From a virus (taxonomy: Duplodnaviria; Heunggongvirae; Uroviricota; Caudoviricetes), in IMG/VR virus record IMGVR_UViG_2639763153_000002: a DNA stretch of 17,234 nucleotides, one strand, 5' to 3'. Shown in pieces: positions 5,388 to 9,237 of the stretch (its first letter is position 1; each line of letters opens with the position of its first letter). Position numbers and translations under genes: made by a program. The notes below the pieces were generated by a model. That model saw only the letters and a list, made by a program, of their open reading frames with translations. It did no database searches and was not told the DNA's origin.

Positions 5388-5445
5388 AAAAAGGGCGGTA
5401 CCAGAAACAAAGGGAAACTGGCACCGCCAAAACTTCACACAGCTT
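5388..5445 (-). ncRNA. DicF-like small RNA / terminator hairpin
   Basis: GTTTTGGCGGTGCCAG-TTTCCCTTTGTTT-CTGGTACCGCCC-TTTTT resembles DicF (GTTTGGCGGTATCAGTTT...GCCGCCC, recalled); 11-bp stem plus U tract. Confidence 0.6.
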
Positions 5446-5616
5446 TCGTTACAGGTACTACGGGTTACCACGCTGGCTACGTGATGGGGTTGTGACACCA
5501 GGTCGCTAATCTGCTTACTTCCCGTCGCTCTGTTTTGGTATTGGCAACCAGCTGCTGTTACTCAGTCGATTCCCGGGTCTTTGCGTCGACCGGCGCTGCA
5601 GTACGCTTGTACACGT

Positions 5617-5735
5617 CACAACGGAGAGAGCACTGGGTTCCGATTCTTCTACGAGCAGCGCTGACTTACTCGCTTCTTCGTCGGGACGATAACTGTCAGC
5701 TTTCGGAGTTACCGCCAATGCTCTCACCTGTTGTG
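5617..5735 (-). ncRNA. Structured pL-leader cassette B
   Basis: CACAAC-AGGT-GAGAGCATTGG ... CCAGTGCTCTC-TCC-GTTGTG enclosing nested stems TCCGA/TCGGA, GCTGAC/GTCAGC and TCGTC/GACGA. Confidence 0.5.
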
Positions 5736-5907
5736 TCCCGGACTCTTCCCGGGCGTCACACCTTTTCGCCGCGCTGGTGGGGCGCACGTCGTGCCTGAAA
5801 CACTTAGCTTGCACATTCTTCCGGAATTCCTGAGAGCGCATGGATAAAGGTAACTCTCAGGCGGCTAACGCTGCATGTGCCATACAGCGGTTGCGAATAT
5901 TGCCGTT

Positions 5908-5984
5908 CACAACTGGAAGCGCACTCCTTCAGTTACAAACCAGTCCCCACGACGGATGAAGATGGAATGCGCTTTCATGTTGTG
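5908..5984 (-). ncRNA. Structured pL-leader cassette A
   Basis: CACAAC-ATGA-AAGCGCATTCC ... GGAGTGCGCTT-CCA-GTTGTG. Confidence 0.5.
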
Positions 5985-6026
5985 TGCCTGCTTTTATCCA
6001 CATCAGGCGAGGTGGATCCTGGTTAT

Positions 6027-6072
6027 TCCCCAACAACAAGGATTCGGGTAATCTGGATATCCCCAACAACAA
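6027..6072 (+). repeat. 13-bp direct repeat TCCCCAACAACAA, two copies (6027-6039, 6060-6072)
   Basis: Exact copies at a 33-bp period at the left border of the micropeptide cassette. Confidence 0.85.
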
Positions 6073-6086
6073 ATGGAGTTTCGATA

Positions 6087-6167
6087 ATGAGCTATGACTA
6101 CGAAGAGCGGCATATGCCTCCGTTTAAGAGGCCTGAGCCCCCTCCGAAACCTGATGATTCAGACTGA
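6087..6167 (+). CDS. Proline-rich micropeptide 1, 26 aa MSYDYEERHMPPFKRPEPPPKPDDSD
   Basis: TGGAG RBS 8 nt upstream; the stop overlaps the RBS of the next gene; shares a motif with micropeptide 2. Confidence 0.7.
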   Translation: MSYDYEERHMPPFKRPEPPPKPDDSD

Positions 6168-6175
6168 GGTGTGAA

Positions 6176-6628
6176 ATGACCCGCGACGATATGATTTTTG
6201 ATGTGAACTACTCATTTCATTTAGAGAAACTGTATTTCACTGTTCTTACTAGAATTGACAAAGCAATCACTATGCTATTAATCGTCTTGGGTTTTTCTGT
6301 TTTTGCACCTTTCATGAATTTATTTTTATTCGGTGTATCCGTTGCTTTTTTATCTGTTATTCAACTGGTCTATCAATTTGGACAGGCAGCTGGTCTTTCT
6401 AAAGAGCAGATGAGGCAATATAGAAGACTACTCGTAGAGCTAAGCTCTCTAACAGATGAAGAGTTGCGAGAAAAATACATAAAAATTCAAGATGCCGATA
6501 GCATTCCGTGGCAGTCATTGCAAGAAGCTGCTTTTAAGCGAACCTGTATTTCTTTAGGAAGAAATTGCGAGATTAACTTATCCTTGAGAAAACGTGTTAT
6601 TGCATGGATTGCCGGGGATATGCCCTGA
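6176..6628 (+). CDS. 150-aa two-TM membrane protein with SLATT-like topology; candidate anti-phage effector
   Basis: N-terminal helix, adjacent hydrophobic segments AITMLLIVLGFSVFAPF and LFLFGVSVAFLSVIQLVYQF, then a charged helical C-terminus; GAGGTG RBS; visibly AT-richer than the backbone. Confidence 0.75.
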   Translation: MTRDDMIFDVNYSFHLEKLYFTVLTRIDKAITMLLIVLGFSVFAPFMNLFLFGVSVAFLSVIQLVYQFGQAAGLSKEQMRQYRRLLVELSSLTDEELREKYIKIQDADSIPWQSLQEAAFKRTCISLGRNCEINLSLRKRVIAWIAGDMP

Positions 6629-6643
6629 CTTTAAGGACTAGAC

Positions 6644-6718
6644 ATGAGCTCCCCTATCATCCCAAACCACGCACCTCCGTTCCCTAGGCCTCCTGCGCCT
6701 CAGCCAAAACCGAAGTAA
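6644..6718 (+). CDS. Proline-rich micropeptide 2, 24 aa MSSPIIPNHAPPFPRPPAPQPKPK
   Basis: TAAGGA RBS; translated by hand; paralogous motif to micropeptide 1. Confidence 0.7.
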   Translation: MSSPIIPNHAPPFPRPPAPQPKPK

Positions 6719-6741
6719 TTTGTTATGGTTGATATCCAGAT

Positions 6742-6753
6742 TGTTAAAGAGCA
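6742..6753 (-). promoter_or_regulatory. boxA antitermination element (rrn consensus) on the pL transcript
   Basis: Minus strand TGCTCTTTAACA matches the rrn boxA consensus exactly and is preceded by a hairpin in boxB-like position. Confidence 0.8.
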
Positions 6754-6776
6754 AAGCGTCCGATGGGCGCTTTTTT
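6754..6776 (+). terminator. Terminator for the accessory cassette; the same hairpin precedes boxA on the minus strand
   Basis: AAGCGTCC-GAT-GGGCGCTT plus TTTT. Confidence 0.75.
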
Positions 6777-6855
6777 CATACCTGCGAATCATCCCGGTCT
6801 TCGTATGCCCCGGGCGGCTACTTCGTGGGCGTTCTGCCTGTCCGCTGTTTCTGTT

Positions 6856-6889
6856 AGGTACATTATGTACCCACAGGGTACATTGTCAA
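6856..6889 (-). promoter_or_regulatory. pL promoter with overlapping oL operator
   Basis: TTGACA (6884-6889), 16 bp, CATAAT (6862-6867); palindrome ATGTACCC-ACA-GGGTACAT (6865-6883) between the hexamers; extra half-site AGGTACAT at 6856-6863. Confidence 0.85.
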
Positions 6890-6893
6890 GTAT

Positions 6894-6916
6894 AAAAAAA
6901 CCTGCCGGAGCAGGTT
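6894..6916 (-). terminator. Terminator of the cI transcript
   Basis: Minus strand AACCTGC-TCCG-GCAGGTT followed by a T run. Confidence 0.85.
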
Positions 6917-6943: not shown

Positions 6944-7603
6944 TTATCTTCTTGGTTTTCCAGAAAAAATAACGGTGCCGATAATCGAACAATTGCCATT
7001 GATTTTGATATAAGGCTCTGGCCAGTTTGTGTTCAGAGCTTTTAGGTAACGTTGTCCCGCATCCTCAATCAGGCGTTTGAAAGTAGTCTCTCCAGAATCA
7101 TGCATTAACGCAATTACATCGTCACCGTGCGCTGCTGGTACTTCTGGATCCACAAAAATCATATCGCCAGGTCGGTATTCATCGATCATCGAGTCGCCAA
7201 TAACGCGAAGAATATAAGTCATGGGCCCACATGGTACAGGGCATGGATAGTTTTCTGTACTATTCAAGTCCACCTCAGCATAGCCAAATTCGGTCCATGC
7301 TCCAGCCTGTACCCAGGATATAACCGGAACCATAATAAAATTTCTATTCGTATCTGAAACATCCGGTGATTTAGCAACATTAGTGGTTTGATGTTCCTGA
7401 TCTAACCAACCCATAGGCAAGTCAAAACACTTTTCGATGTGCCGGGCCATAGCATCACCAATGTTCTTAGTTGCACCATCACCCATAAACCGGCTGGTTT
7501 GGGTAGGCTCGCGATCAATCATGTTGGCGAAGTAGATATTTCCACCAACACCATCTCTCAATTTTCTGGCGTTTAACCGCCTGATTTCCTGGATTGTTTT
7601 CAT
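6944..7603 (-). CDS. cI: Prophage repressor CI (HTH plus S24 autopeptidase), e14 CohE/YmfK-like, 219 aa
   Basis: MKTIQEIRRLNARKLRDGVGG N-terminus; VQAG (A-G cleavage site), GDSM (Ser) and TFKRL (Lys) S24 motifs; divergent from cro. Confidence 0.95.
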   Translation of the reverse strand: MKTIQEIRRLNARKLRDGVGGNIYFANMIDREPTQTSRFMGDGATKNIGDAMARHIEKCFDLPMGWLDQEHQTTNVAKSPDVSDTNRNFIMVPVISWVQAGAWTEFGYAEVDLNSTENYPCPVPCGPMTYILRVIGDSMIDEYRPGDMIFVDPEVPAAHGDDVIALMHDSGETTFKRLIEDAGQRYLKALNTNWPEPYIKINGNCSIIGTVIFSGKPRR

Positions 7604-7620
7604 ATTGAAATTTAACCGCG

Positions 7621-7687
7621 TGTACCTCAAAGGTACAAGTACCTTGAAGGTTCATTTCTTTCGTGTAATATGTACACAAGAGGTACA
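7621..7687. promoter_or_regulatory. oR region: three 17-bp operators overlapping pR/pRM
   Basis: TGTACCTCAAAGGTACA (7621-7637), AGTACCTTGAAGGTTCA (7638-7654), TGTACACAAGAGGTACA (7671-7687); same consensus as oL; candidate pR TTGAAG (7644) ... TAATAT (7666). Confidence 0.85.
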
Positions 7688-7690
7688 TAT

Positions 7691-7891
7691 ATGAAAGAGT
7701 TTTGGGATTCATTGACCAAAGAGCAACAAAGCACATTAGCGGCAAGCGTTGGTTCTACAACCGGTTATCTGCGTTTAGTTTTTAACGGTTACAAAAAGGC
7801 CGGCTTTAATCTGGCCAAAAAGCTGGAAAACATCACATCAGGCCAGATCACTAAGTTTGACCTTCGGCCAGATATCTATTCCAAACAATAA
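7691..7891 (+). CDS. cro: Cro-like repressor (e14 CroE/YmfT-like), 66 aa
   Basis: MKEFWDSLTKEQQ...GSTTGYLRLVFNGYKKA...DLRPDIY; AGAGG RBS; divergent from cI. Confidence 0.93.
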   Translation: MKEFWDSLTKEQQSTLAASVGSTTGYLRLVFNGYKKAGFNLAKKLENITSGQITKFDLRPDIYSKQ

Positions 7892-7935: not shown

Positions 7936-8412
7936 GTGGGTGTCAAGTCAGCGCAGGAAACGATTAAGAAGCAACCTTACATCAGTGCAGGTGATTTATC
8001 TCCAGAGGAGTTAAGACTCTGGCTGAACCGTGTTGCAGATTCAGCCGGTGTAAAAACCGATGGCATGTTTGAGATCGTAAGCAGTCTGCGCCTGCTGGCG
8101 GATGAACTGAAAAAGCCGCTGGAAACCATCCAGGTAAAGATTACTTACCTTTCAAGCCCGGAAATAATTCGTTCGGAAGATCATTCCAACTCAACTCAGG
8201 AAGACCTTCGCCTACTTCGTGAGATTCAGCAATCAGTTCACGATTTCCGTCAATCCATTGATTCATTGACTCTTCAGATTTCAGAAACCCGTCGCTGGCC
8301 GCTACCTGTTGACTGGCTAAACACGGACCCAGGAGTTTCAGAGCAAGAGAAGCGGGAATATTTTCAAGGGATAAAAACACAACCCCAGAGTGGGCATGAA
8401 GCAAATGAATGA
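7936..8412 (+). CDS. Hypothetical 158-aa ORF that uses the former ymfL RBS and GTG start; its 3' 272 nt overlap an antisense gene
   Basis: TAAGGGG RBS before the GTG; helical N-terminal ~65 aa; no family recognised. Confidence 0.5.
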   Translation: MGVKSAQETIKKQPYISAGDLSPEELRLWLNRVADSAGVKTDGMFEIVSSLRLLADELKKPLETIQVKITYLSSPEIIRSEDHSNSTQEDLRLLREIQQSVHDFRQSIDSLTLQISETRRWPLPVDWLNTDPGVSEQEKREYFQGIKTQPQSGHEANE

Positions 8413-8688: not shown

Positions 8689-9237
8689 ATGAATGAACCT
8701 GGATGGAAAGTGGATAAGCAGCCGGCATGGCTGGTGGCCTCTATAAAAAAAACGATCACTGATTTGGACGGTGGTTACGTGGAAGCAGCGGAGTGGTTGG
8801 GCGTTACTGAAAATGCATTGTTTAACCGTTTACGCGCCGATGGTGATCAGATTTTTCCTCTCGGCTGGGCAATGGTCCTGCAGCGTGCTGGTGGCTCAAA
8901 CCACATTGCCAATGCGATAGCACGCCATTCGAACGGGGTATTCGTGCCACTGGCCGATATCGAGGAAGTTGACAACGCCGATATTAACCAGCGCCTGATG
9001 GAGTCGATCGAGTGGATAGGAAAACACTCGCAGTATCTACGCAAAGCCACTGCTGACGGTGTTATTGACCAGGCCGAACGTGAGCAGATCGAGGAGAACA
9101 GTTACCAGGTCATGGCGAAATGGCAGGAGCATTTAACGTTACTTTTCCGTGTCTTTTGTCAGCCAGAAAAGAGTGACGCCCGCGAGTGTGCAGCTCCGGG
9201 CGTCGTGGCAGATAAATCAACGTGTATGGAGAAATAA
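8689..9237 (+). CDS. ymfL: YmfL family putative regulator (cII position)
   Basis: WKVDKQPAWLV...GGYVEAAEWLGVTENALFNRLRADGDQIFPLGWAM; GAGG RBS. Confidence 0.88.
   Translation: MNEPGWKVDKQPAWLVASIKKTITDLDGGYVEAAEWLGVTENALFNRLRADGDQIFPLGWAMVLQRAGGSNHIANAIARHSNGVFVPLADIEEVDNADINQRLMESIEWIGKHSQYLRKATADGVIDQAEREQIEENSYQVMAKWQEHLTLLFRVFCQPEKSDARECAAPGVVADKSTCMEK

What the first reader, a model, noticed from the sequence alone, without database searches (positions are those of the whole stretch)
6087..6718. Candidate new defence or toxin system: two-TM membrane effector flanked by two paralogous proline-rich micropeptides
Seen: a three-ORF plus-strand operon with its own terminator. It encodes a 26-aa peptide (...HMPPFKRPEPPPKP...), a 150-aa two-TM protein and a 24-aa peptide (...HAPPFPRPPAPQPKP...). 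Each has an RBS, and the first stop overlaps the next RBS. The peptides share H-x-P-P-F-x-R-P-x-x-P-(x)-P-K-P, and several shared residues use different synonymous codons (CAT/CAC, TTT/TTC, CCG/CCA, CCT/CCG), which suggests selection on the peptide rather than a DNA repeat. Neither peptide would be called by standard annotation. Established: the slot beside cI holds exclusion genes in lambdoids (lambda rexAB); SLATT-type two-TM proteins are predicted membrane effectors; proline/arginine-rich peptides (oncocin, Bac7, apidaecin) bind the ribosome exit tunnel and DnaK; PPP motifs need EF-P. Inference: the peptides may be labile antitoxins or gating ligands of a pore-forming effector, decoys sensed by a phage protease or protein, or translation-stress sensors. 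No nucleotide-signal synthetase is adjacent, unlike classical SLATT loci.
Basis: partly seen in the sequence, partly recalled or inferred. Interest (0 to 1): 0.85.

Follow-up and report, generated by a model that had tools for sequence, protein, structure and literature searches.

The report
Prophage SLATT-like protein with proline micropeptides
Next to the repressor gene of a Klebsiella-type lambdoid prophage lies a small cassette: a two-helix membrane protein distantly related to SLATT "suicide-pore" immune effectors, bracketed by two unannotated proline-rich micro-genes that are conserved and under selection in many phages. This points to an undescribed peptide-controlled membrane module, probably for phage exclusion, whose function has not been tested.

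Summary
Three tightly packed plus-strand ORFs (26 aa, 150 aa, 24 aa) with Shine-Dalgarno sites and an intrinsic terminator lie convergent with the cI-like repressor.

The peptides are real genes:
- An acidic upstream peptide (U) precedes the membrane gene in 50 of 50 evaluable close loci. It also does so in about 14 of 18 distant lineages (25-48% identity; lambdoid and P2-like phages, GC 32-59%).
- One or two basic downstream peptides (D) follow in all 53 close loci.
- pN/pS is about 0.3 with saturated synonymous sites; the other frames give ratios above 1.3 and contain stops.
- Reverse DNA-pattern scans of 2.9 million viral contigs find the peptides almost only beside this gene.
- Pectobacterium carries a natural in-frame fusion of D to the membrane protein's cytosolic C-terminus.

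The 150-aa protein misses every curated SLATT cut-off, yet it is a remote SLATT relative (hhalign 96% against SLATT_4; TM 0.75-0.87 to annotated SLATT models).

Conserved polyproline stalling is not supported, because several U peptides have no PP.

Best reading (0.45): a lysogen-expressed SLATT-like effector controlled by direct binding of the co-translated micropeptides, toxin-antitoxin-like or Rex-like. Function is untested.

This scan has noted the same cassette before on other genomes. I found no published description.

The parts
5975..6075 (.). Conserved ~100-nt leader of the cargo slot, with two CCCCAACAACA repeats. It is shared with loci that carry unrelated cargo.
   Evidence: 95% identity in many phages and in 853 E. 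coli genomes; alignment of 12 loci, including L001 with ECs1072 cargo.
6050..6074 (.). Left arm of a 25-nt inverted repeat that brackets the three ORFs exactly.
   Evidence: arms 6050-6074 and 6718-6742, 84% complementary.
6087..6167 (+). Peptide U, 26 aa, acidic (net -3), motif Y-E-E-R-H-M-P-P-F-K-R-P-E-P-P-P-K-P plus an acidic tail. Its stop overlaps the SD of the next gene.
   Evidence: Conserved in 50 of 50 evaluable loci. pN/pS 0.32 in frame. Reverse pattern search 39 of 39 evaluable.
6176..6628 (+). 150-aa SLATT-like protein (phrog_6315). It has an N-terminal helix, a two-TM helical hairpin (tip at about residues 43-48), a conserved post-TM helix and a family-specific C-terminal domain ending in A-G-D-x-P.
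   Evidence: AF2 pLDDT 80. Fold TM 0.75-0.87 to annotated SLATT models. hhalign 96.2% against SLATT_4.
6644..6718 (+). Peptide D, 24 aa, basic (net +3), motif I-I-P-N-H-A-P-P-F-P-R-P-P-A-P-Q-P-K-P-K.
   Evidence: One or two D peptides in all 53 loci. pN/pS 0.32. Reverse pattern search 34 of 36. Fused in frame to the 2TM protein in Pectobacterium.
6718..6742 (.). Right arm of the bracketing inverted repeat.
6755..6779 (+). Intrinsic terminator of the cassette (9-bp stem, U-run). The same hairpin precedes a boxA-like TGCTCTTTAACAA (6754-6742) on the minus strand.
   Evidence: The boxA was read directly from the sequence; the consensus is from my own knowledge.
6862..6889 (-). pL-like promoter (TTGACA-16-CATAAT, 11 of 12) overlapping GTACAT-type operator repeats. 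Its transcript would run antisense through the whole cassette.
   Evidence: operator-like repeats read.
6944..7630 (-). cI-like S24/LexA-family repressor, convergent with the cassette (context).
   Evidence: Same convergent layout in 40 of 43 loci where a repressor homologue lies in the flank.

Best explanation
This is a lysogen-expressed prophage cargo module whose effector is a divergent SLATT-superfamily inner-membrane protein. Like other SLATT proteins, it is expected to oligomerise and permeabilise or depolarise the membrane when released.

It has no enzymatic signal generator. Instead its only conserved partners are co-translated proline-rich micropeptides: an acidic one encoded just upstream and translationally coupled (the position of an antitoxin), and one to three basic ones downstream.

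I infer three steps:
1. The peptides adopt extended polyproline-II conformations and bind the family-specific cytosolic C-terminal domain of the membrane protein.
2. They are made in excess and most likely hold the protein inactive.
3. Loss, titration or displacement of the peptides during infection by another phage frees the effector, giving exclusion or abortive infection. This would be toxin-antitoxin-like, or like the RexA/RexB ratio control in the same lambda slot.

On induction of the prophage itself, pL transcription runs antisense through the cassette and would silence it.

Shown: the genes, their conservation and selection, exclusivity of the pairing, the natural fusion, remote SLATT homology, and the slot architecture.
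Inferred: binding, the sign of regulation, toxicity and defence.
For: Pairing is near-obligate both ways.
- U is present in 50 of 50 evaluable close loci, and D in 53 of 53.
- U-like sORFs sit next to relatives at 25-48% identity in lambdoid and P2-like phages, including Fels-2, at GC 32-59%.
- Motif patterns occur almost only beside this gene in 2.9 million viral contigs.

Selection acts on the peptide. pN/pS is 0.30-0.32 with pS 0.68-0.79; the other frames give 1.4-3.1 and contain stops.

The layout is antitoxin-like. The U stop lies 6-10 nt before the effector ATG in most loci, and there are 2-3 peptide genes per effector gene.

There is a natural fusion. In at least four Pectobacterium assemblies a D peptide is fused in frame after the C-terminal A-G-D-L-P. 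In the AF2 model of that fusion the linker has pLDDT 49-52 but the last ten residues (R-P-P-A-P-P-K...) reach 73, which hints at docking.

The effector is SLATT-like.
- Fold matches TM 0.75-0.87 to annotated SLATT entries.
- 23 of 52 relatives hit NCBIfam SLATT_4 below threshold.
- hhalign against bona fide SLATT_4 gives 96.2%, E 2.4e-9, over the TM hairpin and the next helix. The C-terminal domain lies outside that match and is family-specific and highly conserved.

The most distant relatives (L070/L071) sit beside a nucleotidyltransferase instead of a peptide gene, as classical SLATT proteins do.

The slot is convergent with cI in 40 of 43 loci and antisense to a strong pL-like promoter. In Fels-2 it is likewise antisense to the early operon.

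One K. pneumoniae copy has the effector gene split by a ~115-bp insertion while both peptide genes are intact. This fits a gene whose loss is tolerated.
Against: - The sign of regulation is unknown, so the peptides could activate or co-assemble rather than inhibit.
- No plus-strand promoter was identified.
- A few family members lack a recognisable peptide gene (L165, L167, L070; L065 is unclear).
- In two low-GC lineages U lies about 95-100 nt upstream, so coupling is not universal.
- Proline-rich peptides tend to resist general peptidases, which does not fit a labile antitoxin well.
- The pLDDT rise in the fused tail is only a hint; I could not inspect coordinates.
- SLATT pore activity itself is predicted, not solved. 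No PDB relative was found.
Confidence: 0.45

Rival explanations
1. The peptides are structural or assembly partners (co-subunits, activators, or membrane-targeting or stability factors) of the 2TM protein rather than inhibitors. The module may also serve the prophage in another way, such as addiction or stabilisation, lysis or induction timing, or an envelope change, rather than anti-phage defence.
For: The same evidence for tight pairing, selection and fusion fits a co-subunit as well as an inhibitor. A covalent fusion that survives in several Pectobacterium strains is easier to reconcile with a constitutive partner than with a releasable antitoxin. One relative lies beside a lysis cassette, on the opposite strand.
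Against: - The copy number of peptide genes varies from 1 to 3 per effector gene, and double-motif peptides occur. That suggests dosage rather than fixed stoichiometry.
- The slot and its antisense placement to early lytic promoters are typical of lysogen-expressed exclusion cargo.
- The fusion keeps the internal SD and ATG of the peptide.
Confidence: 0.22
2. The basic D peptides, and perhaps U, act in trans on host machinery as intracellular mimics of proline-rich antimicrobial peptides, binding the ribosomal exit tunnel or DnaK. The membrane protein would then be their partner for sequestration or release.
For: D peptides carry H-(I/V/A)-P-P-x-P-R-P-P-x-P. This is close to the PrAMP core Y-L-P-R-P-R-P-P of oncocin and Y-I-P-Q-P-R-P-P of apidaecin. 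In those peptides the PRP prolines are essential, Y6H is tolerated in oncocin, and expression inside E. coli slows growth (PMC10862732). D peptides are cationic (+1 to +6).
Against: - The universal partner is the acidic U peptide (mean charge -1.5), which has no PRP in many lineages.
- The D motif has an extra proline between the aromatic residue and PRP.
- D peptides are far less arginine-rich than PrAMPs.
- This reading does not explain why the peptides occur only beside this membrane protein or why one is fused to it.
Confidence: 0.1
3. The small ORFs are cis-acting translational control elements. Ribosomes pause on polyproline (EF-P or Pro-tRNA dependent, as with mgtL/mgtP leaders, or as arrest peptides), and this sets translation or mRNA stability of the membrane gene. 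The peptide products themselves would have no function.
For: U ends in the SD of the next gene. The window's U has P-P-P, and all D peptides have P-P.
Against: - Several U peptides contain no adjacent prolines at all (Fels-2, L028 group, L059, L066), yet they keep H, R/K and alternating P-x-P.
- Non-proline positions and the acidic or basic tails are conserved.
- The uORF-SD region has no significant structure to remodel (z = +0.35).
- Downstream copies and an in-frame fusion to the protein make no sense for a leader.
- U lies about 100 nt upstream in two lineages.
Confidence: 0.08
4. The peptide ORFs are not genes. Their conservation would reflect the non-coding functions of this region: the inverted-repeat stalk, the pL leader, or a DNA duplication.
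For: The cassette lies inside a conserved pL-leader architecture with a bracketing inverted repeat. Within the window the two motifs share much DNA identity.
Against: - Synonymous sites are saturated while the peptide is kept.
- ATG and SD are kept in all loci.
- The peptides travel with the 2TM gene into P2-like phages that lack this leader.
- The leader and stalk occur with unrelated cargo that has no such ORFs.
Confidence: 0.02

Closest known systems
SLATT superfamily (SMODS- and SLOG-associating 2TM effectors; nearest curated model NCBIfam NF033632 SLATT_4). Examples are the SLATT-5 effector of DRT10/UG17 and the SLATT proteins of DRT3 and CBASS-like loci.
   Same: A small protein of about 150-200 aa with an N-terminal helix, a two-TM hairpin and a conserved following helix. 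Remote homology is shown by hhalign (96.2%), by sub-threshold HMM hits in relatives and by fold. It lies on mobile elements. The most distant relatives sit beside a nucleotidyltransferase.
   Different: - It falls below every curated cut-off in Pfam, NCBIfam and PADLOC.
- It has its own conserved C-terminal domain.
- There is no SMODS, SLOG, TIR or RT partner. The only conserved partners are 21-53-aa proline-rich peptides.
- In DRT10 the SLATT effector needs an RT and an ncRNA (bioRxiv 10.64898/2026.04.29.721553).
Lambda RexA/RexB and SieB (exclusion genes in the cI-pL region of lambdoid phages)
   Same: Same genomic slot beside cI, presumed expression from the prophage, and a small inner-membrane effector. 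In Rex, activity depends on the ratio of a soluble partner to the membrane channel (my own knowledge).
   Different: No sequence relation: no Pfam SieB or Rex hit even at E up to 10. The cassette is convergent with cI, not co-transcribed with it. The partners are micropeptides.
SpoIISA-SpoIISB/SpoIISC of Bacillus (a membrane toxin with two small paralogous protein antitoxins); small-protein inhibitors of defence toxins in general
   Same: By analogy only (my own knowledge): a membrane-anchored toxin with a cytosolic domain is neutralised by short, paralogous, co-encoded proteins.
   Different: No homology was tested or expected. The antitoxins there are 45-56 aa, not proline-rich, and encoded downstream only.
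Proline-rich antimicrobial peptides (oncocin, apidaecin, metalnikowin)
   Same: A short aromatic-aliphatic-P-x-P-R-P-P core and cationic character in the D peptides.
   Different: These peptides are made inside the cell by a prophage. There is an extra proline in the core, few arginines, and the universal U peptide is acidic. No activity data exist.
Proline-codon leader peptides (MgtL/MgtP) and RAPP-type arrest peptides
   Same: A short proline-rich ORF lies immediately upstream of a membrane-protein gene.
   Different: Adjacent prolines are not conserved, there is no attenuator structure, and copies lie downstream or are fused to the protein.

Membership tests
SLATT (Pfam SLATT_1-6 / NCBIfam NF033631-34) | Score above the curated cut-off of a SLATT HMM | tested here: not met
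   The window protein has no SLATT hit in Pfam or NCBIfam. Among 52 relatives, 23 hit SLATT_4 at E<=0.1 with a best E of 2.2e-5; the weakest genomic SLATT_4 match that cleared the 55-bit cut-off scored 58.9 bits at E 1.6e-15.
SLATT (Pfam SLATT_1-6 / NCBIfam NF033631-34) | Remote homology of the core (TM hairpin plus following helix) to bona fide members | tested here: met
   hhalign of the family alignment A2 against 10 Enterobacterales SLATT_4 proteins that pass the cut-off: probability 96.2%, E 2.4e-9, 86 columns.
SLATT (Pfam SLATT_1-6 / NCBIfam NF033631-34) | Two-TM helical hairpin flanked by cytosolic helices; fold like annotated SLATT models | tested here: met
   AF2 model with pLDDT 80, helices 3-42 and 49-90 with a tip at 43-48. 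[quoted passage not shown] No solved structure exists to compare with.
SLATT (Pfam SLATT_1-6 / NCBIfam NF033631-34) | Genomic association with a nucleotide-signal or nucleic-acid-synthesising partner (SMODS, SLOG, TIR, RT) | tested here: not met
   Neighbours are a repressor, a non-coding pL leader and peptide sORFs. Only the most distant relatives (L070/L071) adjoin an NTP_transf_8 gene.
SLATT (Pfam SLATT_1-6 / NCBIfam NF033631-34) | Membrane permeabilisation or toxicity on activation | not testable with these tools
   Needs expression and membrane-potential assays.
Type II-like toxin-antitoxin module | Small antitoxin gene upstream of, and translationally coupled to, the toxin gene | tested here: met
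   The U stop lies 6-10 nt before the effector ATG and the SD sits inside the U 3' end in most loci. Exceptions have gaps of about 25 nt (L164) and about 95-100 nt (L064, L163).
Type II-like toxin-antitoxin module | Toxin toxicity neutralised by direct antitoxin binding; labile antitoxin | not testable with these tools
Indirect hints only: the natural fusion and a pLDDT of 73 in the fused tail.
Proline-rich antimicrobial peptides (oncocin/apidaecin type) | Aromatic residue next to an essential PRP motif, strongly cationic peptide | tested here: inconclusive
   D peptides have H-x-P-P-x-P-R-P-P and charge +1 to +6. U peptides are acidic and often lack PRP.
EF-P-dependent polyproline or arrest leader peptides | Conserved consecutive prolines (PPP/XPPX) and a downstream RNA switch | tested here: not met
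   U peptides in the L028 group, Fels-2, L059 and L066 have no PP. The uORF-SD region folds no better than shuffles (z = +0.35).
SieB (PF14163) / known PADLOC defence proteins | HMM match | tested here: not met
   No SieB hit was found. PADLOC gave only weak hits to CBASS 2TM effector models, E 0.0097 and 0.022.

The most novel reading that the evidence does not exclude
The cassette is a peptide-gated suicide pore. The basic D peptides double as phage-encoded intracellular mimics of animal proline-rich antimicrobial peptides. They are normally sequestered on the cytosolic domain of the SLATT-like protein (or neutralised by the acidic U peptide). On infection they are released, so that both arms fire: the membrane pore opens and the ribosome exit tunnel or DnaK is blocked. 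That would be the first bacterial or phage use of the PrAMP pharmacophore, and the first SLATT effector regulated by peptides rather than by nucleotides or cDNA.
Probability: 0.07. Interest if true: 0.9.

Novelty: new variant of a known kind. Interest (0 to 1): 0.7.

Why it matters
SLATT proteins are widespread predicted pore effectors, and how they are activated is still an open question. The 2026 DRT10 preprint says so explicitly.

This is a compact SLATT-like family of 224 clusters at 50% identity. The window's exact protein occurs on 271 contigs and a close variant on 747. Its enzyme partner has been replaced by genetically simple micropeptides of 21-53 aa.

If the peptides bind and control the effector, the system would be:
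- a minimal and tractable model for SLATT gating;
- a new class of micro-antitoxin or regulator that standard annotation misses;
- a common but unrecognised exclusion module in Klebsiella, Salmonella, Enterobacter, Pectobacterium and other prophages, which matters for phage host range in the laboratory and for phage therapy.

It also shows a reusable cargo slot placed antisense inside the pL leader.

Tried and rejected

Searches that gave nothing useful:
- tblastn of the 26-aa and 24-aa peptides against phage records gave no match even at E 10, probably because of the low-complexity filter. I replaced it with degenerate DNA pattern scans.
I replaced it with an HMM search of 401 genomes.
- Pfam, NCBIfam and PADLOC give no significant family for the window protein.
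- PDB searches by fold and by sequence give nothing.
- Rfam finds nothing in the leader or cassette, only a sub-threshold DicF-like hit at 5393-5441.
- The promoter scan finds no plus-strand promoter, and the leader alignment shows no conserved -35/-10.

Checks that changed or removed a lead:
- Apparent truncated effector variants: P0030 is only cut by a contig end. P0057 is a real insertion-disrupted copy.
- N-terminally extended relatives were checked for a fused U peptide and none was found.
- The ECs1072 protein in the same E. coli slot is unrelated to the 2TM protein.

Rejected readings: a SieB or Rex homologue, a polyproline stall as the conserved feature, and a chance ORF or plain DNA repeat.
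Full report
**Context.** The window is the first 17.2 kb of a 57.9-kb IMG/VR provirus of the e14-like lambdoid type, probably from Klebsiella. The immunity region has three recognisable genes:
- an S24/LexA-type cI-like repressor at 6944-7630 (-);
- a Cro/YdaS-like gene at 7670-7891 (+);
- a CII-like gene at 8689-9237.

Left of cI there is a cI terminator at 6916-6899. Next comes a strong pL-like promoter on the minus strand (TTGACA-16-CATAAT, 6889-6862), overlapping GTACAT-type repeats. The finding lies just downstream of that promoter, on the opposite strand.

- Peptide U is 6087-6167 (26 aa), with GGAG 9 nt upstream of the ATG.
- The 150-aa ORF is 6176-6628. Its GAGGTG SD overlaps the TGA of U.
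- Peptide D is 6644-6718 (24 aa), with AAGGA upstream.
- A 9-bp hairpin with a U-run at 6755-6779 closes the unit.

No plus-strand promoter was detected.

**The peptides are genes.** The 150-aa protein brought in relatives from several collections:
- 50 viral loci at 59-100% identity;
- two genomic loci;
- four phage records at about 33% identity;
- further loci through a profile search of 1.8 billion cluster representatives, which found 224 family clusters, and through an HMM scan of 401 species genomes.

In the 53 close loci, every one with upstream sequence (50 of 50) has a U-type sORF ending 6-10 nt before the effector ATG. All 53 have one (17 loci) or two (36 loci) D-type sORFs, and some D peptides carry a double motif.

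U peptides are acidic (18 distinct sequences, mean charge -1.5). Their core is (Y/F)-E-(E/K)-(K/R)-H-(M/L/V)-P-x-x-x-(R/K)-P-x-x-P-P-K, followed by an acidic tail. D peptides are basic (29 distinct sequences, mean +3.3). Their core is H-(V/I/A)-P-P-x-P-(R/K)-P-P-x-P, and they end in K or R.

Across 16 distinct DNA versions each of the U and D1 cores, synonymous sites are near saturation (pS 0.79 and 0.71). Non-synonymous change is low (pN 0.25 and 0.23). The two alternative frames give ratios of 1.4-3.1 and contain stops.

Degenerate DNA patterns for the D and U cores hit only 36 and 41 of 2.9 million viral contigs. Of these, 34 and 39 lie directly beside the effector gene. Of the rest, two are chance hits in long GC-rich ORFs and two are cut by the locus end.

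**Distant relatives keep the upstream peptide.** Relatives at 25-48% identity keep a U-like sORF in about 14 lineages:
- Fels-2, a Yersinia and other P2-like phages;
- a Providencia phage and phage EKP1;
- L059, L060, L062, L064, L163, L066, L067, L069, L164 and L166.

Host GC in these ranges from 32 to 59%. L065 is unclear. L165, L167 and L070/L071 have none, and L070/L071 instead sit beside an NTP_transf_8 nucleotidyltransferase.

For this variant the exact peptides are absent from a collection of 15 billion predicted proteins, while the 150-aa protein is present on 271 contigs.

**What the 150-aa protein is.**
- It belongs to phrog_6315 (unknown function) and has no Pfam, NCBIfam or PADLOC assignment.
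- AF2 (pLDDT 80) gives a long helical hairpin with its tip at residues 43-48, plus three C-terminal helices.
[quoted passage not shown] Nothing is found in the PDB.
- Of 52 diverse relatives, 23 hit NCBIfam SLATT_4 below its cut-off, best E 2.2e-5.
- I collected ten Enterobacterales proteins that pass the SLATT_4 cut-off. hhalign of the two alignments gives 96.2% probability, E 2.4e-9, over the TM hairpin and the following helix.

So it is a divergent branch of the SLATT superfamily, not a member of a curated SLATT family. The highly conserved C-terminal region (D-S-x-P-W ... A-G-D-x-P) lies outside the aligned core and is specific to this family.

**Link between peptide and protein.** In at least four Pectobacterium assemblies, one of them a complete genome, a D peptide is fused in frame to the C-terminus right after A-G-D-L-P. 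The peptide's own SD and ATG are retained, and a normal U gene lies upstream. With two TM segments and a positively charged N-terminal region, both termini should be cytosolic, so the tethered peptide sits next to the family-specific domain.

An AF2 model of the fusion gives pLDDT 49-52 for the linker but 73 for the last ten residues, which hold the R-P-P-A-P-P motif. This is a weak hint of docking, because I could not inspect coordinates. The complex predictor was not available.

One K. pneumoniae copy has the effector gene split by a ~115-bp insertion with IS5-like ends, while both peptide genes are intact.

**Mechanism.** The best-supported reading is a peptide-controlled SLATT-like effector. 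The grounds are:
- U occupies the antitoxin position and is coupled to the effector;
- peptide genes outnumber the effector gene;
- the pairing is exclusive both ways;
- a natural fusion points to physical interaction at the cytosolic domain.

I infer that the peptides hold the protein closed and that their loss or displacement during superinfection opens it. This would be abortive infection or exclusion, as with toxin-antitoxin modules or the Rex ratio switch in the same lambda slot. The sign of regulation, the toxicity and the defence role are all inferences.

The layout fits a lysogen-expressed function that must be shut off in the phage's own lytic cycle. The cassette is convergent with cI in 40 of 43 loci. 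It is antisense to pL here and antisense to the early operon in Fels-2.

**Rivals.**
- *Polyproline or EF-P leader.* This is disfavoured. Several U peptides have no adjacent prolines, non-proline residues are conserved, there is no RNA switch (z = +0.35), and copies lie downstream or fused.
- *PrAMP-like action.* The D core resembles the oncocin and apidaecin core, where the PRP prolines are essential, Y-to-H is tolerated and intracellular expression is toxic (PMC10862732). But the universal U peptide is acidic, and the exclusive linkage to the membrane protein is left unexplained. I keep this as the most novel reading not excluded.
- *Co-subunit or activator role.* This remains a serious alternative.

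**Slot architecture (outside the finding).**
- The three ORFs are bracketed exactly by a 25-nt inverted repeat, 6050-6074 and 6718-6742.
- A ~100-nt leader at 5975-6075 and the terminator region are conserved. In E. coli they surround an unrelated cargo gene, ECs1072.
- On the minus strand the terminator hairpin is followed by TGCTCTTTAACAA (6754-6742), which matches the rrn boxA consensus as I recall it.

This agrees with another first-stage note that the cargo sits in a stalk-loop of the pL leader.

**Novelty.** Three literature searches and a reading of the DRT10 SLATT preprint found no description of proline-rich micropeptides partnered with SLATT-like proteins. Earlier agents of this scan reached similar readings for the same cassette on other genomes.

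- reciprocal exclusivity scans;
- a codon-level selection test for three peptide classes;
- a formal profile-profile link to SLATT_4;
- the Pectobacterium fusion and its model;
- evidence against polyproline stalling;
- the insertion-disrupted copy.

I rate it a new variant of a known kind: a SLATT-superfamily effector with an unprecedented peptide partner.

Noticed in passing
window 6050-6074 and 6718-6742; leader 5975-6075; minus-strand boxA 6754-6742: A 25-nt inverted repeat (84% complementary) brackets the cassette ORFs exactly. The flanking leader and terminator are conserved around unrelated cargo in E. coli, with partly compensatory changes in the stem. On the pL strand a hairpin is followed by TGCTCTTTAACAA, which is rrn boxA-like. 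This suggests a stalk-loop cargo slot inside the pL leader, perhaps an RNase III site.
   Followed up: partly
window 6862-6889 (-) and 6899-6916 (-): A pL-like promoter (11 of 12 consensus) lies just after the cI terminator and overlaps GTACAT-type operator-like repeats. Its transcript would be antisense to the whole cassette.
   Followed up: partly
window 5393-5441 (-): A sub-threshold DicF-like RNA match (29.6 bits against a gathering score of 48, E 0.0011) lies in the long, apparently non-coding pL leader. The 108-aa ORF at 5515-5841 (-) has no family hit.
   Followed up: no
L001 3108-3542 (E. coli NZ_CP063332.1): The same slot in 853 E. coli genomes keeps the conserved flanks. In the locus examined it holds an unrelated ECs1072-family protein plus an overlapping antisense small gene, so the slot appears to be a hotspot for exchangeable cargo.
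   Followed up: partly
L137 about 1460-1580 (K. pneumoniae GCA_041947345.1): The SLATT-like gene is interrupted after codon ~88 by a ~115-bp element with GGAAGGTGCGAA-type terminal inverted repeats and a CTAA duplication (an IS5-derived MITE, from my own knowledge). Both peptide genes are intact.
   Followed up: partly
L072-L075 1501-2043 (Pectobacterium, P0032): A D-type peptide is naturally fused in frame to the C-terminus of the SLATT-like protein. The internal SD and ATG are kept, so both the fused and the free peptide may be made.
   Followed up: yes
L070/L071 220-1983 (GC 60% metagenome contigs): The most distant family members have no proline-rich sORF. They follow an NTP_transf_8 (PF12281) nucleotidyltransferase gene and precede a 232-aa gene, which is a more classical SLATT-type context.
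   Followed up: no
window 7936-8412 (+): A 158-aa ORF (phrog_37051, unknown function) sits between the cro-like gene and the CII-like gene. Another first-stage note treats it as an insert.
   Followed up: no
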